Shown here piece by piece: positions 3,564 to 58,499 of a stretch of 64,000 bases of DNA. The DNA comes from a phage, in the NCBI GenBank assembly GCA_032986305.1, contig GCA_032986305.1_3672.1. The stretch is one strand, 5' to 3'. Both the position numbers and the translations under genes were made by a program. Positions within the stretch are counted from its first letter, which is position 1. Every line of letters starts with the position of its first letter. The notes beneath the pieces are model-generated. The model ran no database searches. It was not told the DNA's origin and was given only the letters and a program-made list of their open reading frames with translations.

Positions 3564-4150
3564 TCGGAATTGATGTAGATTTGACACTGGTAGATTCAGG
3601 AACAGCATGGTGGGAGTGGTTGGAGCGTTTGTATGGTCCAGCCAGTAAGACAGTCGTTAAACCTTCTAATGGGCTGATGTATTACGATCTGTCAAAGTAT
3701 TGGCCTGATCGCCCCAAAGAAAACATCATAGGACCTTTTGATTTCTGGAGTGATCCGTTCCTCTACGACTTTCTTAAGCCTGAAGAGGGGGCTATTGAGG
3801 TTATGAAAGATTTGGTGGCTCGCGGTCACAAGCTCGCATTTATCTCGGTATGCAAGAAAGGTCACCTTGCATCTAAATCAAGGTTCTTAAAGCGCTGGAC
3901 CAGTGATTTTATGGATCTGGATGATCACACCCAGGGTCACGGCTTCTACGCCACACATTTCAAAGGTAATGTGGCTGTAGATGTTATAATTGATGACAGG
4001 CATGAATACCTGAACCAATTCGCTTCACGACCTGAAGTTATTAAAATCCTAAAAGACACGCCTTATGAGCAATTCGAAGAGTTAAAGGTCAGTGTTGACT
4101 ATACCGCTAATAGCTGGTATAAAATAGGAAAGTTTTTAGAAGGTATTTGA
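3557..4150 (+). CDS. HAD-superfamily phosphatase, 5'-deoxynucleotidase-like
   Basis: N-terminal HAD motif I IGIDVDLTL (DxDxT); context with nucleotide metabolism genes. Confidence 0.45.
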   Translation: MLIGIDVDLTLVDSGTAWWEWLERLYGPASKTVVKPSNGLMYYDLSKYWPDRPKENIIGPFDFWSDPFLYDFLKPEEGAIEVMKDLVARGHKLAFISVCKKGHLASKSRFLKRWTSDFMDLDDHTQGHGFYATHFKGNVAVDVIIDDRHEYLNQFASRPEVIKILKDTPYEQFEELKVSVDYTANSWYKIGKFLEGI

Positions 4151-5364: not shown

Positions 5365-5393
5365 TTGACTAATAGTATCAGATAGTCTATAAT
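5365..5393 (+). promoter_or_regulatory. sigma70-type promoter (TTGACT-17-TATAAT) followed by 5' UTR hairpin 5397-5417
   Basis: Near-consensus -35/-10 with 17-bp spacer; stem GGCTCAC/GTGAGCC immediately downstream. Confidence 0.55.
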
Positions 5394-5433
5394 AATGGCT
5401 CACTTTGTTGGTGAGCCAGAAATGGAGACAGAT

Positions 5434-5895
5434 ATGAGTAATGTTATGATTCCTAAAAAGACATTTATTTCAGTTACTTTAGATTTCCTAGCTACCGTCC
5501 CTGGGTTTAACGTTCGCACACGAAACGGTCTCCGAGCTGCACTCTTCACCGTAGGGTTTGATTTAAAAAATATTGATGTTCTTCGTGGAAAAAACGTTAG
5601 ATGCAAAAATAAGCCAACCCATTATCGAAAGGCAGATGTATTTGCTGGTGTCATGCGTGCAGACTTTAGATACCCACAAATGTATAACGGTGTAGATATT
5701 TTAGATGTAGATAAAGCACCTGGTGAGGCAATGCTTGTTCAAGATCTTCCGTATGATATCTCTGTAGAGGATCGTGTTAATGTAAGAAAGTATACAAAAC
5801 AATCTGAAAAGGCTGAAGATATTCATATTGTTGATGAACCTTTCAATTTTGAAGATCTGCATCGCCTGGAAAAATTATTCGGTATTGAAAGCTAA
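5434..5895 (+). CDS. hypothetical protein
   Basis: ORF with SD GGAGACA 7 nt upstream of ATG 5434; track start 5395 lies at predicted TSS. Confidence 0.45.
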   Translation: MSNVMIPKKTFISVTLDFLATVPGFNVRTRNGLRAALFTVGFDLKNIDVLRGKNVRCKNKPTHYRKADVFAGVMRADFRYPQMYNGVDILDVDKAPGEAMLVQDLPYDISVEDRVNVRKYTKQSEKAEDIHIVDEPFNFEDLHRLEKLFGIES

Positions 5896-9857: not shown

Positions 9858-10714
9858 AAGTTGTAAAACGGGACGGTAGAGAAGAGGTCTATAACGGAAT
9901 TAAGGTGATCAAGGCGGCAGAGTCCGCCTTACTTGAGTCTGGACATACTGAAGAAGAAGCTTACCGGATCGCCTGCGCGGTTAATGAAGTTGTTGCTAAC
10001 AATCTACCAACCGACCAGTGCACGATCTCTGTAAAAAATATCCATATCCTTGTTGAAGACGCTCTTATGGATATGGGTTTAAAATGTGCAGCCAGAGAAT
10101 ACATCCAGTATAGGCAGACAAGAGATAATAACAGAGAGGCAGGTGGAAAACTGCTTGCAGATATTAGTGGCTTCTTGGATCGCACTTGTGATGAATTTAC
10201 AAAAGAAAACGCAAATAAGCCTACCAATCATGTACACACTCATCGTGACCTGCTTGCAGGCATCCTTAGCAAACACCTTGCATCAACACAGATCCTGCCA
10301 GACCGTGTCTCAGAAGAGCACAATAAAGGCTTCATCCATGTGCATGATCTTGACTACTTGATCAGTCCGTTAACAAACTGTTGTTTGGTAAATTATCCAG
10401 ATATGTTGGAAAACGGATTCAACATTGGTAACGCCCATGTCAGTAAGCCGAAGTCAATAGGGGTTGCAACAACAATCCTTAGCCAAATTTCTAGTGCAGT
10501 AGCTAGTGCTCAGTATGGGGGTCAGACTATGAGCCATATTGATCATTATCTGGCACAGTATGCTGAGGCGACCTATGAGAAGAATCTTAAATTTTGCCAG
10601 GAACACTGGTTGCCAGATGCTGAGACTGTTGCAATGCAAATGACAGATAAAGACGTATTTGACAGCATGCAGACTTTGCTCTATCAAATCAATACGTTAA
10701 CCTCTGTCAACGGT
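9854..10714 (+). CDS. nrdD: anaerobic ribonucleotide reductase NrdD, exon 1
   Basis: ATP-cone start MKVVKRDGREE..., conserved NCCLVNY; frame stops at TAA that begins intron-like sequence. Confidence 0.8.
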
Positions 10715-23976: not shown

Positions 23977-24005
23977 TTGACACAACGCTTCAGCTATAGT
24001 ATTAT
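23977..24005 (+). promoter_or_regulatory. sigma70-type promoter TTGACA-17-TATTAT followed by 5' UTR hairpin (24015-24033)
   Basis: Consensus -35; stem AGAGGG/CCCTCT before SD AAAGGAG. Confidence 0.5.
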
Positions 24006-24052
24006 TGTTTTCAAAGAGGGTTTGGTTCCCTCTTCTTTAAAAGGAGCACGTT

Positions 24053-24370
24053 ATGCAAATTGAAATCACTGGCAACGTAGAAATCACTGAAGGCATGGTG
24101 TCTTTCATTTCCCACAAAATGTCAAAACTGGAGCGTCTACATCCTTCTGTAAATCATGCACGTGTAAGTGTAAAAGTTGAAAATGACCACCAGGAAGTTA
24201 TGGCGTTCATTTTTGACAATTCTGGAAAAGAAGTTATTGCCAAAGCTAAAGGTAGTGATGCTTACGAGGCAACTGACCGTATGGTAGATGTTGCAGCACG
24301 TCAGCTGGCTAAGTGCGGTGGAAAGAAAGGTAAGGGGAAAGGCAAAGTAAAGATTGACTTTGGAGAATGA
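24053..24370 (+). CDS. hypothetical protein
   Basis: SD AAAGGAG; lysine/glycine-rich C-terminus. Confidence 0.45.
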   Translation: MQIEITGNVEITEGMVSFISHKMSKLERLHPSVNHARVSVKVENDHQEVMAFIFDNSGKEVIAKAKGSDAYEATDRMVDVAARQLAKCGGKKGKGKGKVKIDFGE

Positions 24371-32355: not shown

Positions 32356-32703
32356 TTATTTGTTTCTCATCCAGCTTTCCCAAGCTGCCTGATAATCTGC
32401 CTCACTGCGGCGGATCTCTTCTTGCTCTTCAAGCCGGATCTCTTCTTCCAGGTACCCCAGGATATCAGCCTTTTTGGTCTGGCGTAACATCCAATCATCT
32501 TTTTTACGAGTAAAGATCTTGTACGCTTTCTCGCAAACCTCCTTTTTACTACCTTTTTGGACTTCAATAACTTTGTAGGCCATGTACTGAACTAGTTTGA
32601 GCTGATCAAGGCGTTTCATGATGTTTTCCTCTTTATGGGGTTCTGGTTTGGTGGGCCTTTTGGCCCGTGTCATTATCTTATTACTTACGGCGGCAAAATT
32701 CAA
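32356..32703 (-). CDS. hypothetical protein
   Basis: 115-aa ORF followed by terminator. Confidence 0.45.
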   Translation of the reverse strand: MNFAAVSNKIMTRAKRPTKPEPHKEENIMKRLDQLKLVQYMAYKVIEVQKGSKKEVCEKAYKIFTRKKDDWMLRQTKKADILGYLEEEIRLEEQEEIRRSEADYQAAWESWMRNK

Positions 32704-32953
32704 GTGTTTTTAATTGATAATCTTCTTCAGCCTGAAGTACAACCGCTTCAATCATTTCGTTGGCATTGTTGAAGCCATACCCTTGAGCGAACTCATCCGC
32801 GCCACCTTTGTGATCATGTTCTGCGTTCATCGCTTCCACAAAATGGAATTCAAGATTATTGAGGTAAGGGCTTGATGTTCCGTCCTCTTTTTCGATGAGA
32901 TCCCAGATAGCATTAAAACGTGATTCAACTTTTTGATTAATCCAGCTTGACAT
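32681..32953 (-). CDS. hypothetical acidic protein
   Basis: Own promoter (TTGACA-17-TAACAT at 33008-33036) and 5' UTR hairpin. Confidence 0.45.
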   Translation of the reverse strand: MSSWINQKVESRFNAIWDLIEKEDGTSSPYLNNLEFHFVEAMNAEHDHKGGADEFAQGYGFNNANEMIEAVVLQAEEDYQLKTLEFCRRK

Positions 32954-33062
32954 AATGTTTTCCTCTCTTCTGGTTGTTGTGTGGGCACTTTTGCCCCTTC
33001 AAGATAAATGTTACCTAACCACCTGGCAGATGTCAACTGTTTTTATAGTTTTTATATAACGG

Positions 33063-33100
33063 GCACCCCCGGTGATTGTCTCCCCCCCGTCGCCAGGTGC
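33063..33100 (-). repeat. conserved GC-rich element (GGGAGACAATCACCGGG-GTGCCCGTTAT), copy 3
   Basis: Reverse-complement match to elements at 41484-41520 and 41625-41660; here just upstream of a minus-strand promoter. Confidence 0.5.
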
Positions 33101-33156
33101 CACCCGTGAGATAAGTATAACAAAAAACAGGACCATTGCAAGCCCTGTTTATTATC

Positions 33157-33291
33157 TTAAAACCAGTTGCCAACCGTTTCCAATAGATCACTGACTATCA
33201 GGACAATACTGATCAGCACATACCTAACCATAAAGGGAAAGATCGCCAACATTGCCGCCACGATCCCTATGGTGATAATTATCTTTCTCAT
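33157..33291 (-). CDS. small membrane peptide (44 aa)
   Basis: Hydrophobic; followed by hairpin plus U-run terminator (33117-33150). Confidence 0.3.
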   Translation of the reverse strand: MRKIIITIGIVAAMLAIFPFMVRYVLISIVLIVSDLLETVGNWF

Positions 33292-33381
33292 GTTTTTGTA
33301 TTCTCTTTCTGTTGCGTTCAAGGCGGTCACCGCCGCCTGCTTATGCTTTGTTAGTTAATGGGGCGTACGGTATAGATTAAA

Positions 33382-33597
33382 CTATGCTGTACGCTCAACT
33401 ATAACAACGGCTTGAGGGATCTCACCTTCCACCACTATCAAGGCTTTTTTCTGCGTGATAGATATCTTTACCCGCTTCAGCGTGGCGGTAAAATCTTTCA
33501 TTTCGTCACGTGGTGTTTTAGTGCAATACCAGATCTCAGGCTTACCTATTTGCAAGCCGCGTAAAAATTCCGTTTTGCCTGTTTTGTTCGTGATCAT
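33382..33597 (-). CDS. hypothetical protein
   Basis: SD GGTG before ATG 33597. Confidence 0.4.
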   Translation of the reverse strand: MITNKTGKTEFLRGLQIGKPEIWYCTKTPRDEMKDFTATLKRVKISITQKKALIVVEGEIPQAVVIVERTA

Positions 33598-33607
33598 TTG
33601 TTTCACC

Positions 33608-33712
33608 TTACCCGATACCGTGGGGAGATAGGATCATGTTAGCCATAGTTGCAACCACTCCAACCGATAATGCCATGCCAACTACTACAACCGTGAAAAT
33701 TTTTTCTAACAT
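33608..33712 (-). CDS. small membrane peptide (34 aa)
   Basis: SD GAGGGTGG; hydrophobic. Confidence 0.3.
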   Translation of the reverse strand: MLEKIFTVVVVGMALSVGVVATMANMILSPHGIG

Positions 33713-33784
33713 GATTCCACCCTCATTAATGGGCGTTGCCTTATTGCCCCGCCCTATGTCGTACACTTTTCTTCTGATCCTCTG

Positions 33785-34048
33785 TTAGCATACGATAGCG
33801 ATCACGCCGCCACAAATAAAAGGTAAATCAAAACGGTCTACCTTGCAAGCTATTTTTAAACGAAAGGCAACATAAAAGAAAAGTTGCAAACAATCGATCA
33901 TTGTGTTAGCTGTTGAAACACTGCCAGCATTAAACACCACCCCGCCCACGGCGTTAAACGTTGCGTTACTCACGAAAGCGAAAAGGCAAGCGATCACGGT
34001 GGCGATCATGATGTTGCGTTTTGTCAATCTGTAAATGATGTTTTTCAT
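33785..34048 (-). CDS. small membrane protein
   Basis: Two predicted TM segments. Confidence 0.4.
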   Translation of the reverse strand: MKNIIYRLTKRNIMIATVIACLFAFVSNATFNAVGGVVFNAGSVSTANTMIDCLQLFFYVAFRLKIACKVDRFDLPFICGGVIAIVC

Positions 34049-34118
34049 TCTGTCATGTTGGCGGCATCGCTGCCGCCTTATGTATTATGCTTTGTAAGAT
34101 GGCTGTTGTCAAACTATT

Positions 34119-34298
34119 TTAACGATAATCATCGTACGCTTTATTAACCTGGCGGATATAACATTCAAAAGCCAGATCAATGGATTTATATTCACGGGTA
34201 TATTCACCATAGGAAACTACATACATTTCTATAGCTTCCTCATATGCGAGGAGAATAGAATCCAAGCCTACGATCTCAGTCTTTGCAATAATAGCCAT
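34119..34298 (-). CDS. hypothetical protein (59 aa)
   Basis: SD GAGGATAAAA; own promoter TTGACA-16-TAATAT and 5' UTR hairpin GGGGC-aacaa-GCCCC. Confidence 0.35.
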   Translation of the reverse strand: MAIIAKTEIVGLDSILLAYEEAIEMYVVSYGEYTREYKSIDLAFECYIRQVNKAYDDYR

Positions 34299-34373
34299 GA
34301 TTTTTTATCCTCTTTGTGGTTGGTGGGGCTTGTTGCCCCCTTGATTTATATATTACAGTCTTATATGGTCATG

Positions 34374-34607
34374 TCAACTATTTTCAAAAAATTTTTCTGC
34401 TGTGATATTCTTCCCGGTAGGGTTCGCTACTTTCAAAATTTTATCATGCACTGGACGCCCAAAAGAATAAGCGCCGTACACAGTAAACCAATAATCGCCG
34501 TCAGGTTGTACTATTACTGCCGCATATGGTACGCCTTTTTCGTTTTTGCTGACAGAATAGATCACGTTGCCATTAATAGCCTCGGCGCGTTTAATTTGTT
34601 CCATCAT
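34374..34607 (-). CDS. hypothetical protein
   Basis: 77-aa ORF. Confidence 0.4.
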   Translation of the reverse strand: MMEQIKRAEAINGNVIYSVSKNEKGVPYAAVIVQPDGDYWFTVYGAYSFGRPVHDKILKVANPTGKNITAEKFFENS

Positions 34608-34662
34608 GATGATTTGCCTCTCTTTATTTTCATAATTGGGGGCCTTTTCGGCCCCGCCAGGT

Positions 34663-34947
34663 TTATTTATTGATAGCGTGCAGCGGGAAAGGTACGCCAG
34701 GTTGATAGATAACTTTTACAACCTCATCAGGGCAAAAGAAGTTGCAGAACTCACCGCAATAGGCCTCATCCTCTTTCAACTCTTCATCAACATACTCAAA
34801 AAAGTAGTCGATGCTTGGATAATCTTGCCCTGGGTTATAGTCAACCATTGTCAGGACTAGTTCAAGATCGTTGCGTAGGATATGCATACCCGCTTTTAAG
34901 TATTTTGCTTCCATTTCTACTACATCGCCAACGGTAACAATAGCCAT
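34663..34947 (-). CDS. hypothetical acidic protein
   Basis: SD GGAG; 94 aa. Confidence 0.45.
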   Translation of the reverse strand: MAIVTVGDVVEMEAKYLKAGMHILRNDLELVLTMVDYNPGQDYPSIDYFFEYVDEELKEDEAYCGEFCNFFCPDEVVKVIYQPGVPFPLHAINK

Positions 34948-35172
34948 GATTTTAACTCCTATCTATCCGGTTAATGATTGGGGGCCGCCCCCCTGACACG
35001 TCCTATTATCCATATTGTAGGGCTTGATGCAAGTACTTCTTTAAAAATTTTTTAAGCGCCTTGGGGGCCGCTGTAGCGCCAAAATAATAAAGGCCATGCA
35101 ACCGCATAGCCTTTATGTGATTATATCGCTGCAGGCCCTGCCATGGGCCTTATTTTGCATCATTTGCTGGAA

Positions 35173-35493
35173 TTATTCAGAGAAAACATCGTTCACAATA
35201 GCGATCACAATGCCGCCCACCTTGTCACGGTCAACAATGCACAAATCACCATAGATCATGTGGTAGTCTGGATGATCTTTCACGGAATAGTCAATGAGTG
35301 TTTTCTTATCGTCCAGCTTCGTAACTTCCATTCTCATAACGATATGAGAATCATCAAAGGCATTATTGCGAAAAGTCATAGCCTGACCGCCAGGGCACCC
35401 GGTGATCTCCACTTCCACACCGTCTACGATCTGACCATCAAAGAAATAAAGATTATTGGCGGGTATAAACATGATCATTACTCCTTTTTGCAC
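35173..35493 (-). CDS. hypothetical protein
   Basis: SD AAAGGAG; preceded by palindromic element. Confidence 0.45.
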   Translation of the reverse strand: MQKGVMIMFIPANNLYFFDGQIVDGVEVEITGCPGGQAMTFRNNAFDDSHIVMRMEVTKLDDKKTLIDYSVKDHPDYHMIYGDLCIVDRDKVGGIVIAIVNDVFSE

Positions 35494-35514
35494 TGATTAT
35501 TTTAACAGGGTTTA

Positions 35515-35567
35515 AATTTACTTTATTGATGGCCTTGGAGTCAAGGCCATCTAAAAATAAATTTTAC
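35515..35567. repeat. about 50-bp repeated intergenic element with 24-bp perfect palindrome GATGGCCTTGGAGTCAAGGCCATC (copy 1)
   Basis: Near-identical copies at 39235-39287 and 39827-39876. Confidence 0.6.
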
Positions 35568-35764
35568 AGGCCTACAATCTCTTTGATTCGTTTTACTGCT
35601 GCCTCAGCGCCTTGAGGGTAGAAATTATGATAACCAATCACGCGGGTAATACTGATCGCCGCTTGGTGGTCCTCGTAGTCGCCTTTGAATATTTCTTGAC
35701 CATCAACCAGCACAGCAATTTTTTCTTCTTTTTTGAAGTTAATAACGCGGATATTGTTGCTCAT
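35564..35764 (-). CDS. hypothetical protein
   Basis: SD AAAGGAGAAA. Confidence 0.4.
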   Translation of the reverse strand: MSNNIRVINFKKEEKIAVLVDGQEIFKGDYEDHQAAISITRVIGYHNFYPQGAEAAVKRIKEIVGL

Positions 35765-35859
35765 TTTGTTTCTCCTTTGGAACTTTGTCTGTGTGGTGGG
35801 GAGTGTCTCCCCGTTGATTGTTATTATCCATATTCAGGACCGGATTGCAACACCCCGGA

Positions 35860-35905
35860 AGAAAAATTTTTTTGAAAAAAGTTAGGCCCCCAGGGATCGG
35901 GGGCC
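35860..35905 (-). terminator. rho-independent terminator (minus strand)
   Basis: GGCCCCC-agggatc-GGGGGCC; U-rich on minus strand. Confidence 0.5.
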
Positions 35906-35909
35906 GTTA

Positions 35910-36029
35910 TCAGGTGCGTACAGCGATAAAATACATCCCTACGCCTAACAATATTTCAAGGGCGATAATCTCCAGCCATACCATAACACGGCGCGCCTTA
36001 TCGGTGCGGGGCTTATCCTTGGGTGTCAT
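35910..36029 (-). CDS. small membrane peptide (39 aa)
   Basis: Hydrophobic C-terminal half; followed by terminator. Confidence 0.3.
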   Translation of the reverse strand: MTPKDKPRTDKARRVMVWLEIIALEILLGVGMYFIAVRT

Positions 36030-36049
36030 CGTCTCCCCCTTTCCTCCTG

Positions 36050-36271
36050 TTAGTAGTGACGTGGTTTACAATGGTCCCCAGGAGTACTATCGCCACGCAC
36101 ATTACGAGAAAAATTATTTCTTCCGTTGTTCGGTCCATTGTTATAAAACCTCTCAAGATCAGGTCTAAAAGTAAATCTTTCGTTATTGAATCCGTCACGC
36201 CAGGCGGCTGGCTTCAAATCTTCACTAAATGGATTAATTAACGTGGCATTATTTAAACGGTTGGCCCACAT
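36050..36271 (-). CDS. hypothetical Asn-rich protein
   Basis: SD GAGAGG before ATG 36271. Confidence 0.3.
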   Translation of the reverse strand: MWANRLNNATLINPFSEDLKPAAWRDGFNNERFTFRPDLERFYNNGPNNGRNNFSRNVRGDSTPGDHCKPRHY

Positions 36272-36620
36272 ATTTTCTATTCCTCTCAAATAGGCGATCC
36301 GCCTCAGTTAAACATATCTCATGGGCGTGATCTCTGGTTTTAGCTTCATCGAAAACCTGTTGTGCAAGGCTGCAACGTAGGGAGACTGGAAGATCACTAT
36401 AATAGGCGTTGACAAACGTTTGAGCGTCGTACAGGTCTGAAAATACTTTACCCTTTCTATTATTTCCCTTGTCAACAATTGCAAGGATAACCAATACAAT
36501 AGTTGCAACCACCCCCAGGAAAATAGATATAATAAACCATAAAAAGGCGGATCTCCCCATCTTGCCAGCGATCCAGGCGTTAAACAAGGCAACCAATATA
36601 GCCAAAATAATAAATTCCAT
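36249..36620 (-). CDS. membrane protein
   Basis: SD AAGAGG before ATG 36620; two TM helices. Confidence 0.4.
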   Translation of the reverse strand: MEFIILAILVALFNAWIAGKMGRSAFLWFIISIFLGVVATIVLVILAIVDKGNNRKGKVFSDLYDAQTFVNAYYSDLPVSLRCSLAQQVFDEAKTRDHAHEICLTEADRLFERNRKYVGQPFK

Positions 36621-36684
36621 TCTATGTACCTCTTTTACAGTTCTGATTAACAATAAGGCGGCAAATATGCCGCCTGTTACCTGA

Positions 36685-37065
36685 TTAAAAATTATCGCCG
36701 TAAATCTTTCCGCTTTCTACCCATACCACCACGCGAGGCATACTATCCCACACGTCTTGTTTTAGATTGAGCGCGTGCAATTCTTCGGTGGTGCTCATAC
36801 CGGGCACGGGCTGATTGTATACTGCAAAACGACCGCCTGCATAATCATAGGCCAGGGTTAAATCACACTGGATCATCTTTTTGATCATGGCATTAAGCAT
36901 GGCGTTAGCCGCATATTGATCACGTTTTAAAGGCAACTCTTTGATTAGTTTGCGATAGTTTTCGATATGGTCGCACACTGTTTCACGAGGAAGATCTTTC
37001 ATATCCTCGCGAAAGGTAACCAGGTTAAACATAACGGTGTCAATGGCCTTGGTAGTGTTTTTCAT
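36685..37065 (-). CDS. hypothetical protein
   Basis: SD GAGAGGA before ATG 37065. Confidence 0.45.
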   Translation of the reverse strand: MKNTTKAIDTVMFNLVTFREDMKDLPRETVCDHIENYRKLIKELPLKRDQYAANAMLNAMIKKMIQCDLTLAYDYAGGRFAVYNQPVPGMSTTEELHALNLKQDVWDSMPRVVVWVESGKIYGDNF

Positions 37066-37154
37066 AATGTTATCCTCTCTGTTTTGTGTTGGGCAAGTCA
37101 TCTCGCCCCTTGAGTTTTAATATAGCAGGTTTTTAGATTATTGCAACACTTTAT

Positions 37155-37778
37155 TTATGAAAAACTCATCTCCCCATATTCATCCACATCAAACCGCCAA
37201 TCATTGGCTTCAATAAGGCCGATCAGGTTTTCGGTAGTAAACTGTTCAAGATAGGCCCCCTCCAGGTCTACGTAAACCTTGCGGGATAGCTCCCGTACCG
37301 TCTCGGTGATCAGCTCTTCCAGCTCTTCAACTTTATCCTCTTGCTTGGTGGTCAGGTCTAGCCAATTAGTATCGATGCACCCTCCTATTGTGTTTTCGTG
37401 GTGATAATGGCTAAACGGGATACGTTCAACACTAGCTGATAACTCGCCATCGTGCATTGTGCCGAACAAGTGACGAATTGATCGGAACTTGGTCAGGGCC
37501 TTGACTTTACGCAAGAATTTTTCTAAATCCACGTTTTCAGCACTGATTGACGCGCCATCGCCTTGACACCAAAAGCCGGACCAACGTACTTCGGTATCTT
37601 CAAGGCCGTACTCTGGAAAGACATATTCTTTATAGTGTTCAATTACGCTTTCTGCAAAAAAATTATCCCCGCTGTGTTCTTCTCTTTCGCGTACCATTTC
37701 AATGGCTTTTTCTTTTTGTTCGTCGGTCAGCACATCGAAAGATAAATTGTAACCTGTGGTAATGTTAACGGTGGTCAT
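37155..37778 (-). CDS. hypothetical acidic protein
   Basis: 207 aa, strongly acidic; SD AGGAGAAAAT. Confidence 0.45.
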   Translation of the reverse strand: MTTVNITTGYNLSFDVLTDEQKEKAIEMVREREEHSGDNFFAESVIEHYKEYVFPEYGLEDTEVRWSGFWCQGDGASISAENVDLEKFLRKVKALTKFRSIRHLFGTMHDGELSASVERIPFSHYHHENTIGGCIDTNWLDLTTKQEDKVEELEELITETVRELSRKVYVDLEGAYLEQFTTENLIGLIEANDWRFDVDEYGEMSFS

Positions 37779-37799
37779 GATATTTTCTCCTGTTTTCTT

Positions 37800-37864
37800 T
37801 GTTAGTGGCGGGAAGTTTTCCCGCCTGTGTGTTTAATTATACTTATTGAGATTTACTTGTCAAC
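37800..37864 (-). promoter_or_regulatory. promoter (TTGACA-16-TATAAT) plus 5' UTR hairpin GGCGGGAA/TTCCCGCC cassette
   Basis: Minus-strand consensus hexamers at 37858-37863 and 37836-37841; palindrome 37807-37825. Confidence 0.55.
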
Positions 37865-38113
37865 ACTATTTTTTAAATTATTGTGGCGCAAAATGTTTAA
37901 AATCTCTTCAACGTCATCAACACGGCGGCAATTTTTAAACGCTACCAATTGCCCCATGATTTTAATCACTGGGCGGCCTTGCCAGTGCCCTTGGAGAAAG
38001 CGCGCCTTGACTTTATCGGTGGAACTATCACGCCACCAAATAGCCTTGTTGTTGCAGTAGTAAAAATTATTCAGGATAACATCAACTTTATCAAAATTTT
38101 TTAATTTACGCAT
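37853..38113 (-). CDS. hypothetical protein
   Basis: SD AAGGAG. Confidence 0.45.
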   Translation of the reverse strand: MRKLKNFDKVDVILNNFYYCNNKAIWWRDSSTDKVKARFLQGHWQGRPVIKIMGQLVAFKNCRRVDDVEEILNILRHNNLKNSVDK

Positions 38114-38292
38114 GGCGTTTACTCCTTCCTCTCTTTGATGTGGTTAGTATAGCTAACCTGTTGACGATGTCAATGATATTTTTAACGCCATAAAACGGCC
38201 CTGGGCGATGTTTTCAGGTTAAAGGGGGCGATTGCATAGGTGGGGGCCTTTTTGGCGCTTACAGGGCCAACCAGGGGCGCTATTCGTATGAT

Positions 38293-38323
38293 AGAAATAA
38301 AAAGCCCCGCACAATGGCGGGGC
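38293..38323 (-). terminator. rho-independent terminator (minus strand)
   Basis: GCCCCGC-acaatg-GCGGGGC then U-run on minus strand. Confidence 0.55.
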
Positions 38324-38331
38324 GTTGGTTG

Positions 38332-38529
38332 TTATTTGTCTTTATGGCGGTATCGTTCTGCCTGTCGTTCACGTTCCAAAAGTAGGCCGGGCAATTTACG
38401 ATCATAATGATTACGCCAGATCTTCCCAAACCTTTTTGGCTTATTCAGTTTATTGTTACGCTGGCGGCGTTCTGGCAGCTCTTCGGAATCATGAGGGCGC
38501 TTTACAATTTTCTCGAAATTAATTTTCAT
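38332..38529 (-). CDS. small basic protein
   Basis: Arg/Lys-rich 65 aa; terminator immediately downstream. Confidence 0.4.
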   Translation of the reverse strand: MKINFEKIVKRPHDSEELPERRQRNNKLNKPKRFGKIWRNHYDRKLPGLLLERERQAERYRHKDK

Positions 38530-38873
38530 ATATTCCCCCCCTTGCTAACTTCAATATTGGCCTGAATAGCTCGGATACGGCGCTTTATAACTTCCTGATC
38601 TGTGTGGTCGTATCCCCAAAAGTCTACAATTTTTGCGCCCCCCGCCTCCAGGCGGTATAGTGTTTCCTGCATTTTGTAAGCCGGGATCGGGCGCGGTGTT
38701 ACTTGGTCACCTTCTTTATTTTTATACTTTATAATATAATCTTCGTTATCGTTGAATGCCCAAAATGGATATTCTGCAAGGGCGGTACTTCCTCTTTCCT
38801 TTTTATCCTGGATCTTATTTACAATTAAAGCCGTAGCAATAGCGCCAATAATAAAACTAGCCCCGCTAATCAT
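38526..38873 (-). CDS. membrane-anchored protein
   Basis: N-terminal TM helix. Confidence 0.45.
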   Translation of the reverse strand: MISGASFIIGAIATALIVNKIQDKKERGSTALAEYPFWAFNDNEDYIIKYKNKEGDQVTPRPIPAYKMQETLYRLEAGGAKIVDFWGYDHTDQEVIKRRIRAIQANIEVSKGGNI

Positions 38874-38949
38874 GTGTACTTTCTCCTTTCATGGTGTTAA
38901 TAAATTATCTTTATAGATGGCCCTGCAACCAGGACCACCGAAAAAATAA

Positions 38950-39195
38950 CTATTTCACAATGCCTACAAAACAGATCCCGCCTTCACCTATGTAAGCAAT
39001 ATCGGTAACTTTATAATTTGTCAAGATCTGTTTATTTAGTTCATTAATAAAATCGGTCATTGCGTTGGTGTAGTTGTCTTCCATATCTAAGGCATAATCC
39101 CAGGCGTAAACCTTTTTACGTCCGAAGCCTTTTACCATGATACGGGCGCTTTTGGTGTTGGTGGGCGCATAATATTTTGTGATTAGTGCTGCCAT
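38950..39195 (-). CDS. hypothetical protein
   Basis: SD GAGGAG. Confidence 0.45.
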   Translation of the reverse strand: MAALITKYYAPTNTKSARIMVKGFGRKKVYAWDYALDMEDNYTNAMTDFINELNKQILTNYKVTDIAYIGEGGICFVGIVK

Positions 39196-39234
39196 GGTTT
39201 TAACTCCTCATTAGTTCAGTGTTAACAGTGTAAA

Positions 39235-39287
39235 GTTTACTTTATTGATGGCCCTGGAGTCAAGGCCATCTAAAAATAAATTTTACT
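39235..39287. repeat. repeated palindromic intergenic element (copy 2)
   Basis: gatggccctggagtcaaggccatc with one mismatch in stem. Confidence 0.6.
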
Positions 39288-39594
39288 CGTTTTCTTCCAG
39301 CTCTGTCTGCAATTCCTGGTATTCTTCATCGTCCTCAATATCCAGGCTGTCGATGTAGTCGCTAAATCCGCAGCGGTAAGCGATAGGATCTAACTCCTTG
39401 AGGATACGCGACGGAAGAAAAGAAATGTTTCCGATCATAATTTCGCCGTAGATCTCGTCTAGCCATTCGTCATAGTTTTCGTCGTACTTGTCCTCGTCGA
39501 TTTCAAAGTTATCGATCTTGTTCTCAAGGTCTGCGATCTGTTTTTTCAGCGCGGCGATCTGCATAGCTTTTTCTGCGGCGGTCATAGTAGTCAT
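39283..39594 (-). CDS. hypothetical acidic protein
   Basis: SD AAAAGGAGAAA; Asp/Glu-rich. Confidence 0.45.
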   Translation of the reverse strand: MTTMTAAEKAMQIAALKKQIADLENKIDNFEIDEDKYDENYDEWLDEIYGEIMIGNISFLPSRILKELDPIAYRCGFSDYIDSLDIEDDEEYQELQTELEENE

Positions 39595-39675
39595 GGTGTT
39601 TTCTCCTTTTGTGTGTTCTGGGAAGTTTTCCCGTTTACGTGTTTAAGTATACCGATTTGGGTTAGCTTGTCAATT
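39595..39675 (-). promoter_or_regulatory. promoter (TTGACA-16-TATACT) plus 5' UTR hairpin cassette
   Basis: Same architecture as 37800-37864. Confidence 0.5.
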
Positions 39676-39793
39676 AAAAATTTAAGAAAAATTTTGCAAA
39701 ACTGTTGGCGCTACTCATTAACATTTGCGCCAGGATGTAACCGACAACGCAAACGATAATAGTTACCTTTGTGTATTGGCGTGTAGTGCTCAT
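39674..39793 (-). CDS. small membrane peptide (39 aa)
   Basis: SD GGGGG; hydrophobic. Confidence 0.3.
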   Translation of the reverse strand: MSTTRQYTKVTIIVCVVGYILAQMLMSSANSFAKFFLNF

Positions 39794-39826
39794 CTTAAAG
39801 CCCCCTTTTCGCTTAGTTGAGACTAG

Positions 39827-39876
39827 TTTACTTTATTGATGGCCCTGGAGTCAAGGCCATCTAAAAATAAACTTAA
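39827..39876. repeat. repeated palindromic intergenic element (copy 3)
   Basis: Identical core to copy 2. Confidence 0.6.
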
Positions 39877-40277
39877 TAAGTTTTCAGTACTTTACCGTCC
39901 AACCTGTCAAGCTGGATCTCAATAGCTGCAGAAAACCTATTGTACACCACGTCGCCCATAGAATCCAACCAATCTATGACGTTATATACCTGCTCTTTAT
40001 TCTTACAGGTCCGGATCCGTTTCATGATGTAAGCCGGATCAATATTGGTACTCTCGTTGGTGTTCCCCTGTACCTGGTTTGCCGTATTAGTTACATCTTT
40101 AATGGCCTTTACCACCACCTGGAATGGCTTTAAGGTGCCTTTTGCGTTCATCTCACGCGCTTTTGCGGCGCGGTTGTTATATGTTACACAACGGCGGCAA
40201 ATATTGATCAAATGCATGTCAATAATTTTTTCATCGTTTGCCAACTCGTTCATGATGCGGCGTACGTTCTTATTCAT
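39873..40277 (-). CDS. hypothetical protein
   Basis: 134 aa; own promoter/hairpin cassette at 40278-40352. Confidence 0.45.
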   Translation of the reverse strand: MNKNVRRIMNELANDEKIIDMHLINICRRCVTYNNRAAKAREMNAKGTLKPFQVVVKAIKDVTNTANQVQGNTNESTNIDPAYIMKRIRTCKNKEQVYNVIDWLDSMGDVVYNRFSAAIEIQLDRLDGKVLKTY

Positions 40278-40352
40278 GGTCTTTTTCCTTTATGTTGGCG
40301 GGAAACATTCCCGCCTTTTGTGCCCAGTTTACTTGAATTTTGCAGCGTGTCA
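40278..40352 (-). promoter_or_regulatory. promoter (TTGACA-16-TAAACT) plus 5' UTR hairpin GGCGGGAA/TTCCCGCC
   Basis: Palindrome 40296-40314, SD AAGGAAAAAG. Confidence 0.5.
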
Positions 40353-40359
40353 ACAATTT

Positions 40360-43615: not shown

Positions 43616-43678
43616 AATATATCCCTCTCTGCTAGTTTATGTTTGTACTATACCCCGCAGTTTTCAGATGTCAACCTC

Positions 43679-50601: not shown

Positions 50602-50868
50602 TAGTTCAGGTAGGTCGTTAAGCTACCCCGCACCATTACGTGCATAGCCATACGTTTTCACGTAGGATCGGACCATCTCATATTCCTATGATAAGCAACC
50701 ACAGGAATCCTCCCATTTCGACCGCACTTGCTGGTCTACTTCCTTTCGGAATGGCCTCTGAGCGTTCGCTCTTTTGAGCGCTTCGTTGCGGATTACCTTG
50801 CCATAAGGTTTAGGCTTCCCGCAGTTAAAGAGGTTATTCGACATAGATTACTCTATGAAGCCACAATG

Positions 50869-57795: not shown

Positions 57796-58097
57796 CAGAA
57801 ACCTCCCACTTCTTCAGCAAATGCAGCTGCTGTCGTCGCTGCATCCAGATAGGACTCTAGTTCACGGGCTGCACGTTTGTAAATTGAGTGGCGAATATCG
57901 TTTGGCAGTTGGTGGAAGTCAACCTCTTCACCGTTGCGGTAAACATGCACATCAGTGATCTGTCTAAATCCGTAATAGTCAACATCAGAATCACGGCACT
58001 CCGGGTCTGGCAACTGGACAACTGCCTGAGCTTCTACAGTGAACATATCGTCAAGTTCGAAATCGATTTCAAAAGTGTATGGTTTATAACGTTTCAT
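57795..58097 (-). CDS. hypothetical protein
   Basis: 100 aa. Confidence 0.4.
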   Translation of the reverse strand: MKRYKPYTFEIDFELDDMFTVEAQAVVQLPDPECRDSDVDYYGFRQITDVHVYRNGEEVDFHQLPNDIRHSIYKRAARELESYLDAATTAAAFAEEVGGF

Positions 58098-58157
58098 CGT
58101 TTAGGGCTTCCTTAGTTTTTGTGGGGAGGAGTGCCTCCCCTTTAGACTCACATCTTA

Positions 58158-58499
58158 CTACTGAAGGTCTTCAGAGTCAAGCTCAAAAAGAATCAAACTG
58201 TGCATGCCTGCAGAGAGATCAACACACCCTGCAACAATAAGGGTCTGATAGTAAGGTTCAGCACCCTCGATGTCTTCGTTAAAATCTACAACAAGGTAGT
58301 CACCTTTGTTAAAGGTGTATTTGTCCGATGTAAACGCAAAACCTGCCCAGTCCCCTACTGCAGGATCTTTATCAGTCACCTTTGTCAGCAGTAGATCTTT
58401 TTCACGAGATCTTTTAGTAAAATCGTGAATCACAACATCCTTCTCTTCCGGAGTTGGATTGCCACACACGTAGTTAACTATATTTCTCCACAAACTCAT
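58158..58499 (-). CDS. hypothetical protein
   Basis: 113 aa. Confidence 0.4.
   Translation of the reverse strand: MSLWRNIVNYVCGNPTPEEKDVVIHDFTKRSREKDLLLTKVTDKDPAVGDWAGFAFTSDKYTFNKGDYLVVDFNEDIEGAEPYYQTLIVAGCVDLSAGMHSLILFELDSEDLQ

What the first reader, a model, noticed from the sequence alone, without database searches (positions are those of the whole stretch)
32954..40352. Recurrent promoter, 5' UTR GC hairpin, strong SD cassette in front of individual small genes
At least five minus-strand genes (starts 32953, 34298, 37778, 39594, 40277) and two plus-strand genes (5434, 24053) are each preceded by a near-consensus TTGACA-16/17-TAnAnT promoter, then a short GC-rich hairpin of variable sequence 5-10 nt after the -10 (for example GGCGGGAA..TTCCCGCC), then an AAGGAG-like SD. 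The variable hairpin sequence argues for an RNA-level role such as a 5'-terminal stabilising stem-loop rather than a common protein site.
Basis: partly seen in the sequence, partly recalled or inferred. Interest (0 to 1): 0.5.

Follow-up and report, generated by a model that had tools for sequence, protein, structure and literature searches.

The report
Promoter–hairpin cassettes before phage early genes
In this rV5-like E. coli phage, many small early genes of unknown function each carry a ready-made expression cassette: a strong host-type promoter, a GC hairpin at the predicted start of the mRNA, an unstructured leader and a ribosome site. The cassettes resemble the "PeSL" modules of T4-like phages, and close relatives have gained and lost genes at them.

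Summary
The window is a Vequintavirus (rV5-like) genome.

**What is there**
- Eleven minus-strand cassettes, ten of them in 32.6–40.4 kb, share one layout. An A/T-rich upstream tract and a sigma-70 promoter are followed by a GC hairpin starting 6–13 nt (mode 10) after the -10. Then come an A/C-rich, T-poor leader, an SD and an ATG.
- This is far above chance: 5 of 30 strong promoters have such a hairpin, against 0.3 expected.
- A second cassette type occurs as three exact 45-nt repeats whose hairpin encloses the -35.

**Comparative evidence**
- The -35 hexamers are invariant across 14 genomes, and the hairpins persist while loops vary or invert.
- Different hairpins occupy the same slot in different phages.
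- Gene gains, losses and replacements between relatives break at the cassettes. Phage magaca retains only one of a pair of repeats and lacks the two genes between them.
- A Seunavirus has the same layout with different stems.

**Interpretation**
- These are PeSL-like modular cassettes, previously described only in T4-like phages.
- The hairpin most likely forms at the 5' end of its own mRNA and slows 5'-end-dependent decay. This step is inferred, because no transcription start sites have been mapped.
- It is not a sense-strand intrinsic terminator, since it lacks a U-tract.

Verdict: a new member of a known kind, of moderate-to-low interest.

The parts
40275..40353 (-). Family A cassette c40315: -35 TTGACA 40353-40348, -10 TAAACT 40331-40326, hairpin GGCGGGAATGTTTCCCGCC 40315-40297, A/C-rich leader, ATG 40277 (134-aa PHROG 13245 protein of unknown function)
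   Evidence: MFE -14.6, z -3.8
39592..39673 (-). Family A cassette c39627, a degenerate paralogue of c37825: TTGACA-16-TATACT, weak hairpin GGGAAAACTTCCC 39632-39620, ATG 39594
   Evidence: 72% identity to c37825 over 93 nt; -5.5 kcal/mol, z -1.0
37776..37863 (-). Family A cassette c37825: consensus TTGACA-16-TATAAT, hairpin GGCGGGAAAACTTCCCGCC 37825-37807, ATG 37778 (207 aa)
   Evidence: z -5.7
37063..37146 (-). Family A cassette c37108: TTGCAA-16-(TGc)TATATT, hairpin GGGCGAGATGACTTGCCC 37108-37091 with one sense-strand G.U pair, ATG 37065 (126-aa protein, annotated as a membrane protein in relatives)
   Evidence: z -4.1; orthologues carry different stems and an exactly inverted loop
35762..35850 (-). 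Family A cassette c35812: TTGCAA-16-GATAAT, hairpin GGGGAGACACTCCCC 35812-35798, ATG 35764
   Evidence: z -2.5
34945..35032 (-). Family A cassette c34993: TTGCAT-16-GATAAT (8/12), hairpin GGGGGGCGGCCCCC 34993-34980, ATG 34947
   Evidence: several different hairpins at this slot in relatives; z only -0.5
34296..34377 (-). Family A cassette c34339: TTGACA-16-TAATAT, hairpin GGGGCAACAAGCCCC 34339-34325, ATG 34298
   Evidence: z -2.4; hairpin lost in phage Gotham
34046..34112 (-). Family A cassette c34077: TTGACA-17-CATAAT, hairpin GGCGGCAGCGATGCCGCC 34077-34060 starting 6 nt after the -10, ATG 34048. This is a mosaic junction: homology to relatives ends in the 5' arm
   Evidence: z -4.8
32951..33036 (-). 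Family A cassette c32996: TTGACA-17-TAACAT, hairpin GGGCAAAAGTGCCC 32996-32983, ATG 32953
   Evidence: z -2.3; phage C5 carries the c37108-type hairpin here
32617..32703 (-). Family A cassette c32666: TTGAAT-17-TAAGAT (8/12), hairpin GGGCCAAAAGGCCC 32666-32653, ATG 32619
   Evidence: z -2.7; relatives have an extra gene inserted in the leader, flanked by a repeated leader
58095..58180 (-). Family A cassette c58140, outside the flagged range: TTGACT-17-TAAGAT, hairpin GGGGAGGCACTCCTCCCC 58140-58123, ATG 58097
   Evidence: z -3.6
39827..39871 (-). Family B cassette, copy 1: exact 45-nt repeat whose 10-bp hairpin GATGGCCTTGACTCCAGGGCCATC encloses the TTGACT hexamer (read as a -35 in the other two copies; no -10 was scored for this copy)
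39236..39280 (-). Family B cassette, copy 2: the same 45-nt repeat. With copy 1 it flanks two genes that are absent from phage magaca, which keeps a single copy
35517..35561 (-). Family B cassette, copy 3: the same 45-nt repeat with a perfect 10-bp stem
23977..24055 (+). Plus-strand example: TTGACA-17-TATTAT, hairpin AAGAGGGTTTGGTTCCCTCTT 24014-24034 starting 8 nt after the -10, but with a T-rich tail (terminator-like), ATG 24053
5365..5436 (+). Plus-strand example: TTGACT-17-TATAAT, hairpin 5396-5418 starting only 2-3 nt after the -10, so the expected start site lies inside the stem; ATG 5434
33321..33338 (-). Intergenic GC hairpin AGGCGGCGGTGACCGCCT with an A/C-rich tail and no recognisable promoter (best score 6/12). 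It is conserved in relatives with a near-inverted loop
34639..34655 (-). Intergenic GC hairpin GGGGCCGAAAAGGCCCC with no recognisable promoter (best score 7/12)

Best explanation
**What it is.** The region is a block of presumed early genes of unknown function in a Vequintavirus (rV5-like myophage). It is built from single-gene modules, and each module carries a compact expression cassette. The cassette runs: A/T-rich UP-like tract, near-consensus sigma-70 promoter, GC-rich hairpin about 10 nt after the -10, unstructured A/C-rich T-poor leader, SD, ATG.

**How it most likely works (inferred).**
- Host RNA polymerase starts 2-5 nt upstream of the hairpin, so the stem-loop forms at the extreme 5' end of the mRNA.
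- There it hinders access of RppH and the RNase E 5' sensor and prolongs the life of the early transcript.
- The SD stays free for translation.
- The same hairpin could cap 5' ends produced when read-through transcripts are cut in the AU-rich promoter sequence just upstream.

**What the comparisons indicate.** The cassettes are repeated homology patches at which relatives have gained, lost and swapped genes of unknown function. In that respect they are the Vequintavirinae counterpart of the PeSL (promoter-early stem-loop) cassettes of T4-like phages.
For: **Identity.** The window is 88-96% identical over the flagged region to many Vequintavirus genomes.

**Architecture and chance.**
- There are 11 cassettes with the same order of parts.
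- Enrichment is strong: 5 of 30 strong promoters against 0.32 expected. Promoter scores at hairpins are far above background.

**The promoters are real.** The -35 hexamers show zero diversity and the -10 shows 0.044. Spacers show 0.104 and loops 0.204, over 9 cassettes in 12-14 genomes each.

**Geometry.**
- Distinct variants place the hairpin 9-12 nt after the -10 in 37 of 38 cases, and exactly 10 nt in 20 of them.
- The distance from hairpin to ATG varies from 11 to 33 nt.
- A C-A-A start-site-like motif directly precedes many hairpins, in Seunavirus as well.

**Folding.** Predicted 5' UTRs form one 5' hairpin and leave the SD open.

**Not a sense-strand terminator.** There are 0-1 T in the 8 nt after the stem in 35 of 38 variants. 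True T-tailed terminators (38323, 35905, 32344, 44563, 63597) sit in the same minus-strand gene block, three of them inside the early region. The identical hairpin sequence GGCGGGAAnnnTTCCCGCC is usually followed by a T-run in unrelated viral contigs.

**The structure is maintained.**
- Four unrelated hairpins occupy the c34077 slot in different phages.
- Stems are extended on both arms in c37108.
- Loops are inverted while the stems are kept.

**The layout is conserved across genera.** A Seunavirus has it with GCCGGG(G)A stems.

**Module shuffling.**
- Magaca keeps one of two 45-nt direct repeats and lacks the two genes between them.
- Insertions are flanked by 13-28 nt of repeated leader.
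- A replacement junction lies in a hairpin arm.

**Established knowledge.**
- 5'-terminal stem-loops stabilise E. coli mRNAs. This is from my own knowledge of Emory, Bouvet and Belasco 1992, which is listed in the references of PMC3997798.
- PeSL features are described in PMC2839356 and PMC4122927.
Against: - No start site, half-life or 3'-end data exist for any rV5-like phage in the literature I could search.
- If transcription starts at the usual 7th-8th nt after the -10, 3-5 nt remain unpaired. That is at the edge of what 5' hairpins tolerate. RNase E readily steps over an orthogonal stem-loop once bound to a 5' end (PMC9943677).
- Two hairpins are weak (c39627, c34993). One orthologue has lost its hairpin (c34339 in Gotham) and others are weakened, so the element is dispensable.
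- Family B hairpins and the promoter-less hairpins at 33338 and 34655 lie upstream of, or without, a start site. They need another explanation.
- Per-site diversity of stems (0.101) is no lower than that of promoter spacers.
- Complementary changes in DNA palindromes can arise by template switching without selection.
- The excess of sense-strand G.U pairs (17 vs 6 over 50 variants) shrinks to about 5 vs 3 independent events. It does not settle which strand folds.
Confidence: 0.5

Rival explanations
1. The hairpins act on transcripts coming from upstream, as proposed for PeSLs. They would attenuate or terminate read-through, or act as 3'-to-5' exonuclease barriers that stabilise the upstream gene's mRNA. 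On this view their place next to the promoter is incidental to tight packing.
For: - The stem-loop of one PeSL reduced reporter expression as strongly as rrnB T1 (PMC2839356).
- Upstream stop codons overlap or abut the promoters, so read-through RNA does contain the hairpins.
- Family B hairpins and the promoter-less hairpins at 33338 and 34655 cannot be 5'-terminal in primary transcripts, yet they are conserved.
- The annotators of phage EdH4 called several of these hairpins terminators.
Against: - There is no U-tract: 0-1 T in 8 nt in 35 of 38 variants. Genuine T-tailed terminators are used in the same region.
- Elsewhere the same hairpin sequence is usually followed by a T-run.
- The position is fixed relative to the -10. 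It is not fixed relative to the upstream stop (27-45 nt away) or the ATG.
- A terminator placed after the start site would also stop the cassette's own transcript.
Confidence: 0.22
2. The hairpins are DNA-level elements. They would be palindromes that serve as recombination or template-switch hot spots, or as binding sites for a structure-specific protein, with no role as RNA.
For: - Mosaic junctions fall in or next to the hairpins.
- Loops are inverted in three cassettes: exactly in c37108 (GACGT/ACGTC), near-exactly in c40315 and c33338.
- Complementary insertions occur on both arms in c37108.
- A hairpin was transplanted between cassettes in phage C5.
- PeSL crossover points were mapped in or near the stem-loop (PMC2839356).
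Against: - Arms of 5-8 bp are too short for ready cruciform extrusion (my own knowledge).
- The stems are too diverse for one sequence-specific protein.
- Several junctions lie in the leader/SD or the UP tract and not in the hairpin.
- Recombination can be a by-product of any repeated sequence, and it does not explain the fixed offset from the -10.
Confidence: 0.12
3. They terminate antisense (plus-strand) transcription. This would protect the early genes and their promoters from convergent transcription entering from the plus-strand block at 1-29 kb.
For: - The consensus scan calls five of them plus-strand terminator-like: 37807-37825, 40297-40315, 34060-34077, 34325-34339 and 35794-35816.
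- The A-rich stretch between the -10 and the hairpin reads as a T-rich tail on the other strand.
- The rV5 paper expected a bidirectional terminator at this convergence point and did not find one (PMC3606486).
Against: - Only c40315 has a run of T directly after the stem. The others have interrupted tails such as TGTGTGTTTA or CTTGATTTAT.
- Wobble pairs favour the sense strand where they differ.
- The A-rich initial transcribed region is equally present at hairpin-less promoters.
Confidence: 0.08
4. The hairpins have no function. They would be relics of terminators, or hitch-hikers copied along with the cassette when modules duplicate and recombine.
For: - Some cassettes are clear paralogues (c37825 and c39627).
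- Hairpins decay or are lost in some phages.
- About half of the promoters in the region work without one.
Against: - Unrelated stems sit at the same offset in different cassettes and in a different genus.
- Hairpins are replaced by other hairpins and not by random sequence.
- The T-poor tails differ from those of terminators.
Confidence: 0.08

Closest known systems
PeSL (promoter-early stem-loop) cassettes of T4-like phages RB49/phi1, T4/PST and KVP40/nt-1 (Arbiol et al. 2010, PMC2839356; Comeau et al. 2014, PMC4122927)
   Same: - An intergenic cassette of about 100 bp with an AT-rich tract, a near-consensus sigma-70 promoter, a GC-rich stem-loop and an SD.
- Many copies, concentrated in a region of small genes of unknown function.
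- Copies lie at indel and replacement boundaries between close relatives.
- Genes are deleted by recombination between flanking copies (magaca).
- One subclass has the stem-loop overlapping the -35, as in family B here.
   Different: - The phage lineage is different (Vequintavirinae, not T4-like).
- The dominant position here is downstream of the -10 at a fixed offset of about 10 nt, inside the predicted transcript. In RB49/phi1 the common positions are between the -35 and -10 or over the -10.
- The tails here lack a U-tract, so the terminator role claimed for PeSLs is doubtful.
- Mini-circles and reporter activity were not tested.
5'-terminal stabilising stem-loops of E. coli mRNAs (ompA, papA; Emory, Bouvet and Belasco 1992; Bricker and Belasco 1999; cited from my own knowledge and listed in the references of PMC3997798). 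Also the 5' stem-loop of phage T7 gene 10 mRNA (my own knowledge).
   Same: - A stable hairpin of arbitrary sequence within a few nt of the predicted 5' end.
- It is followed by an unstructured leader and a strong SD.
   Different: - The start site is only predicted here, leaving 2-5 unpaired nt.
- No half-life data exist.
- Here it is a repeated, modular feature of many genes rather than a property of one mRNA.
Intrinsic (Rho-independent) terminators
   Same: A GC-rich stem of 5-8 bp with a 3-5 nt loop. The very same sequence is usually followed by a T-run, terminator-like, in other viruses.
   Different: There is no U-tract on the sense strand, and the hairpin lies after a promoter instead of after a gene end.
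Morons of lambdoid phages (Hendrix et al. 2000, as discussed in PMC2839356)
   Same: Single accessory genes carrying their own transcription signals, added to and removed from a phage genome.
   Different: Morons are promoter-gene-terminator units inserted by illegitimate recombination. Here the shared signals themselves supply the homology for exchange.

Membership tests
PeSL cassettes | Near-consensus sigma-70 early promoter with an AT-rich upstream tract | tested here: met
   -35 hexamers invariant across 14 genomes
PeSL cassettes | Stable GC-rich stem-loop within the same intergenic cassette | tested here: met
   (-8.6 to -15.9 kcal/mol for 10 of 11)
PeSL cassettes | Many copies clustered in a plastic region of genes of unknown function | tested here: met
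   10 family A and 3 family B copies in 32.6-40.4 kb. Downstream genes all belong to PHROG families of unknown function. The region is mosaic among relatives.
PeSL cassettes | Copies mark indel or replacement boundaries; recombination between flanking copies removes genes | tested here: met
   Magaca keeps one of two 45-nt repeats and lacks the two genes between them.
PeSL cassettes | Stem-loop acts as an efficient transcription terminator or attenuator | not testable with these tools
   The sequence argues against intrinsic termination: 0-1 T in the 8-nt tail in 35 of 38 variants.
PeSL cassettes | Formation of circular excision products (mini-circles) | not testable with these tools
   Requires inverse PCR on infected cells or virions.
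5'-terminal stabilising stem-loop | Hairpin at the extreme 5' end of the transcript, with no more than a few unpaired nt | tested here: inconclusive
   0-7 (mostly 4) unpaired nt if transcription starts at the 7th nt after the -10, or 2-3 if it starts at the A of the recurrent C-A-A motif. The start site is not mapped.
5'-terminal stabilising stem-loop | Effect depends on structure, not sequence | tested here: met
   Stems and loops differ between copies and orthologues while a hairpin persists at the same offset.
5'-terminal stabilising stem-loop | Lengthens mRNA half-life by blocking 5'-end-dependent decay | not testable with these tools
   Needs a rifampicin chase of wild-type, stem-disrupted and compensatory mutants.
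Intrinsic terminator | U-tract directly 3' of the GC hairpin | tested here: not met
   Not met on the sense strand. The antisense strand is only partly T-rich.
Lambda-type nut site (boxA/boxB) | Conserved boxB loop recognised by an N-like protein, plus boxA | tested here: not met
   Loops differ (AAC, TGT, ACA, AACAA, AAAG, AAAA, GCGA, ATGA) and invert between orthologues. No shared linear motif appears in the cassette alignment.
Known RNA families (Rfam) | Match to a curated covariance model | tested here: not met
   No Rfam hit at any cassette at E <= 1 in 29-64 kb.

The most novel reading that the evidence does not exclude
The hairpins at about +3 could be a self-marking device. rV5-type phages encode a probable Srd homologue (gp11 in rV5, PMC3606486). 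In T4, Srd stimulates RNase E against host mRNA while phage mRNA is stabilised (Qi et al. 2015 and Ueno and Yonesaki 2004, as cited in PMC4980113). A base-paired 5' end plus a U-poor leader would then exempt the phage's own early transcripts from the decay it provokes. The same cassettes would double as portable homology arms that let any newly acquired gene plug into this protected expression format.
Probability: 0.12. Interest if true: 0.6.

Novelty: new member of a known kind. Interest (0 to 1): 0.35.

Why it matters
- It extends PeSL-type promoter/stem-loop cassettes, so far described only in T4-like phages, to a second, unrelated group of large lytic myoviruses (two genera of Vequintavirinae). 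Modular regulatory cassettes may therefore be a general route by which such phages gain, lose and exchange accessory genes of unknown function.
- It corrects database annotation. These hairpins are labelled as terminators in at least one record, and were not reported among the promoters and terminators listed for rV5.
- The cassettes are compact, strong, host-polymerase-driven expression units of about 90 bp that could be reused in synthetic biology or phage engineering.
- If the 5'-hairpin function holds, they give a natural, multi-copy test bed for how 5'-end structure sets mRNA life during infection.
- None of this overturns current understanding.

Tried and rejected
- **Rfam (E <= 1) over 29-64 kb.** Nothing at the cassettes; the only hit was a group I intron elsewhere.
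- **nut/boxB antitermination.** Rejected because the loops are not conserved and there is no shared linear motif.
- **RNase III sites.** Rejected because stems of 5-10 bp are too short (my own knowledge of the substrate requirement).
- **A single operator for a repressor.** Rejected because the stems are too diverse.
- **Scan of viral contigs for GGCGGGAAnnnTTCCCGCC.** Found 115 loci, most of them followed by a T-run (terminator-like). Only a few large Vequintavirinae-like contigs showed the promoter context.
- **Scan for promoter plus GGCGGG.** Found 121 matches, of which only 3 form a hairpin.
- **phi92.** Its first 50 kb, the only part fetched, has tightly packed genes and ordinary A/T-flanked terminators, not this layout. 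It is now classified in another subfamily.
- **L072 (153-kb contig with a cassette).** No match among GenBank phages.
- **G.U asymmetry, to decide which strand folds.** Inconclusive once non-independent variants are discounted.
- **Per-site conservation of stems.** Not lower than that of promoter spacers.
- **Literature search for start-site or RNA-seq data on rV5-like phages.** Found none.
- **rV5 supplement.** It lists promoters only to 7 nt past the -10, and a search of it for GGCGGGAA/TTCCCGCC found nothing.

Full report
**What the window is.** A 9-kb query around the finding matches 250 phage records, mostly Escherichia phages of the genus Vequintavirus (rV5-like). The ten that cover at least 80% of it are 88-95% identical, the best being HMD-6 at 94.6%. 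GC skew and the ORF layout put plus-strand genes at 1-29 kb and minus-strand genes at 30-64 kb. The flagged stretch is a run of small minus-strand genes. Nine products that I scanned each match a different PHROG family of unknown function over their full length, so they are real but uncharacterised phage genes. In annotated relatives this block lies next to the genome terminus.

**Checking the observation.** Each has TTGACA, a 16-17-nt spacer and TAnAnT, then a GC hairpin, then an SD and an ATG. A systematic scan for promoters and perfect GC hairpins added six more copies. There are eleven "family A" cassettes in all, with hairpins at:
- 58140-58123
- 40315-40297
- 39632-39620
- 37825-37807
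- 37108-37091
- 35812-35798
- 34993-34980
- 34339-34325
- 34077-34060
- 32996-32983
- 32666-32653

Ten of the eleven lie within 32.6-40.4 kb.

The two plus-strand cases fit less well. At 5365 the stem begins 2-3 nt after the -10. At 23977 the stem is followed by a T-rich tail and looks like an ordinary terminator.

**Is it more than chance?**
- On the minus strand, 5 of 30 promoters scoring at least 10/12 have a perfect GC hairpin starting 3-14 nt after the -10. Random placement gives 0.32 on average and never more than 3 in 2000 trials.
- Seen from the hairpins, 5 of the 42 listed in the minus-strand gene block have a promoter scoring at least 10/12 at that offset, where the background probability is 0.012. 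Eight have one scoring at least 9/12, where the background is 0.038.
- I took the 7th nt after the -10 as the start. The predicted 5' UTRs then fold into one 5'-proximal hairpin with the SD unpaired. MFE is -8.6 to -15.9 kcal/mol and z is -2.3 to -5.7 in nine of eleven.
- c39627 (z -1.0) and c34993 (z -0.5) are weak.
- Of four nearby promoters taken as hairpin-less, the leaders of three (40819, 38173, 43674) do not fold at all and the 41102 leader forms only a weak 4-bp hairpin (-4.5 kcal/mol).

**Two classes of hairpin in the same region.** Every promoter-proximal hairpin is followed by an A/C-rich, T-poor tail: at least 15 A+C in 20 nt and 0-1 T in the first 8, except c34993, whose tail has 12 and 3. 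The terminator-like hairpins at 38323, 35905, 32344, 44563 and 63597 have 5-7 T in 8. Over all distinct variants in 14 Vequintavirus genomes, 35 of 38 promoter-proximal hairpins have 0-1 T in the tail. In the same set, 37 of 38 start 9-12 nt after the -10, and 20 start at exactly 10.

The exact hairpin GGCGGGAAnnnTTCCCGCC occurs in 115 unrelated viral contigs, where it is usually followed by a run of T, like a terminator. The promoter-proximal, A/C-tailed form appeared only in a handful, three of them contigs of 137-153 kb. One of those is phage 4MG, a Seunavirus. So the hairpins here are not sense-strand intrinsic terminators. A/C-rich leaders are also found at hairpin-less promoters, so that trait belongs to the leaders in general.

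**Comparison with relatives.** I fetched the homologous region from 13 Vequintavirus genomes. Mean pairwise difference per site, over nine cassettes, is:

| Part | Difference per site |
|---|---|
| -35 hexamer | 0.000 |
| -10 hexamer | 0.044 |
| Start of the coding sequence | 0.041 |
| Spacer | 0.104 |
| Stem | 0.101 |
| Tail | 0.146 |
| Loop | 0.204 |

The promoters are clearly under selection. The stems are not more conserved per site than neutral-looking spacer. A hairpin of at least about -4 kcal/mol nevertheless persists at the same offset in nearly every orthologue, while its sequence changes:
- The c34077 slot holds four unrelated hairpins in different phages.
- c37108 shows A-U to G.U changes and complementary extensions of both arms.
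- c34993 shows several different stems.
- Phage C5 carries the c37108-type hairpin inside the c32996 cassette.
- Loops are exactly or nearly inverted in c37108 (GACGT vs ACGTC), c40315 and c33338.

Exceptions exist. The c34339 hairpin is deleted in Gotham and weakened in rV5_ev168. Inverted loops and paired arm changes can arise by template switching in DNA palindromes, so they are not clean proof of selection on RNA. Sense-strand G.U pairs outnumber antisense ones by 17 to 6 over 50 variants. That is only about 5 versus 3 independent events, so the test of which strand folds is inconclusive.

**The same layout in another genus.** A Seunavirus (LNA4) has at least seven copies. Each has a sigma-70-like promoter (six with a recognisable -35), 6-12 nt often ending in C-A-A, a hairpin with GCCGGG(G)A-type stems, an A/C-rich tail and an AAGGTAA SD. 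Similar stems followed by T-runs, terminator-like, lie nearby. phi92, now placed in a different subfamily, does not show the layout in the 50 kb I fetched.

**A second cassette type, and gene shuffling.** Three exact 45-nt direct repeats lie at 39827-39871, 39236-39280 and 35517-35561: TTTATTTTTAGATGGCCTTGACTCCARGGCCATCAATAAAGTAAA. Each contains a 10-bp hairpin that encloses the hexamer TTGACT. In the 39236 and 35517 copies this reads as the -35 of a TTGACT-18-TAAAYT promoter. Where the window has the first two copies flanking a small ORF, cassette c39627 and the 103-aa gene, phage magaca has a single copy and neither gene. That is the pattern expected from recombination between flanking direct repeats.

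Other differences between relatives also break at the cassettes:
- Homology ends in the 5' arm of the c34077 hairpin, with a different gene downstream.
- Extra genes sit in the c32666 and c33338 leaders, flanked by 13-28 nt of repeated leader and SD.
- A 219-bp deletion ends just upstream of the -35 at 43674.

Because the intergenic DNA here is almost entirely cassette, enrichment of junctions at cassettes is expected. The repeated sequence at the junctions is the informative part.

**What is known.** Arbiol et al. (PMC2839356) and Comeau et al. (PMC4122927) described PeSLs in T4-like phages. These are intergenic cassettes of about 100 bp with an AT-rich tract, a sigma-70 early promoter, a GC stem-loop and an SD. 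They are clustered in plastic regions of genes of unknown function and mediate gain and loss of those genes by recombination. Five subclasses differ in the position of the stem-loop, and the authors regard the stem-loop as a terminator or attenuator.

The present cassettes meet the features I could test. They differ in phage lineage, in the dominant and tightly fixed position downstream of the -10, and in lacking a U-tract.

The rV5 genome paper lists 33 promoters and 20 terminators. Its promoter table stops 7 nt after the -10, and a search of its supplement for GGCGGGAA/TTCCCGCC found nothing. The EdH4 record labels some of these hairpins as terminators. I found no description of this layout in Vequintavirinae.

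**How it most likely works.** Shown by the analysis:
- the promoters are conserved;
- the hairpin is anchored to the promoter and not to the ATG;
- it is structurally maintained but free in sequence;
- it lacks a terminator tail;
- the cassettes are recombination points.

Inferred:
- RNA polymerase starts 2-5 nt before the stem. A C-A-A motif at positions 7-9 after the -10 fits the usual pyrimidine/purine start rule (my own knowledge).
- The hairpin therefore caps the 5' end of the mRNA and slows decay that depends on RppH and the RNase E 5' sensor, as for ompA and papA. This rests on my own knowledge of Emory et al. 1992 and Bricker and Belasco 1999, both listed in PMC3997798.

Caveats:
- With 3-5 free nt the protection would be marginal.
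- RNase E can step over an orthogonal stem-loop (PMC9943677).
- Family B and the promoter-less hairpins need another role, such as a 3' barrier for upstream RNA or a cap for processed 5' ends.

I put the 5'-cap reading at about 0.5. The upstream-acting attenuator or barrier reading is about 0.2. DNA-only roles, antisense termination and no function are about 0.1 each.

**Verdict.** This is a new member of a known kind, of moderate-to-low interest.

Noticed in passing
window 50649-50884 (-), next to ORF 50869-53298 (-): There is a full-length Rfam group I intron (RF00028, 64.7 bits, E 2e-14). It sits at the 3' end of an 809-aa ORF with a weak, sub-threshold family A DNA polymerase match (27.9 bits against a cut-off of 34.3). 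The polymerase gene therefore appears to be split by a self-splicing intron. The downstream exon was not identified.
   Followed up: partly
hairpins at window 37108-37091, 40315-40297 and 33338-33321, compared with loci L125/L129, L004 and L001: Between orthologues the loop is reverse-complemented while the stem is kept. The inversion is exact for GACGT/ACGTC and near-exact for the other two. This is the signature of template switching or inversion at DNA palindromes.
   Followed up: partly
loci L125, L126, L127, L129 (GenBank MG065677, MG065659, MG065647, MG065662): Records named 'Campylobacter phage' (UNVERIFIED, host C. jejuni) are 90-96% identical to this E. coli Vequintavirus region and are classified as Vequintavirinae. 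The host labels look doubtful.
   Followed up: no
window about 45845; loci L004 17354-17977 and L006 17391-18014: JES2013 and rV5_ev168 carry a 638-bp insertion, relative to the window, at the position of a gene annotated as endonuclease VII. It is another presence/absence difference in the early block.
   Followed up: no
locus L002 (EdH4, MK327930), e.g. 3871-3885 and 10218-10236: Promoter-proximal hairpins that lack a T-tail are annotated there as 'putative transcriptional terminator'. This is probably a mis-annotation by a hairpin-energy-based predictor.
   Followed up: partly
window 33125-33150 (-) and 35133-35150 (-): These are further intergenic hairpins in other positions relative to promoter boxes. 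One has TTGCAA in its loop with a T-rich tail. The other lies just upstream of a TATAAT. Both sit next to indel junctions in relatives.
   Followed up: partly
window 56946-56870 (-): A strong promoter (TTGACA-17-TACAAT) is followed 21 nt later by a 10-bp GC hairpin with a TTTTT tail, and then by an SD and a TTG start. It looks like a promoter-proximal terminator or attenuator, unlike the family A cassettes.
   Followed up: no
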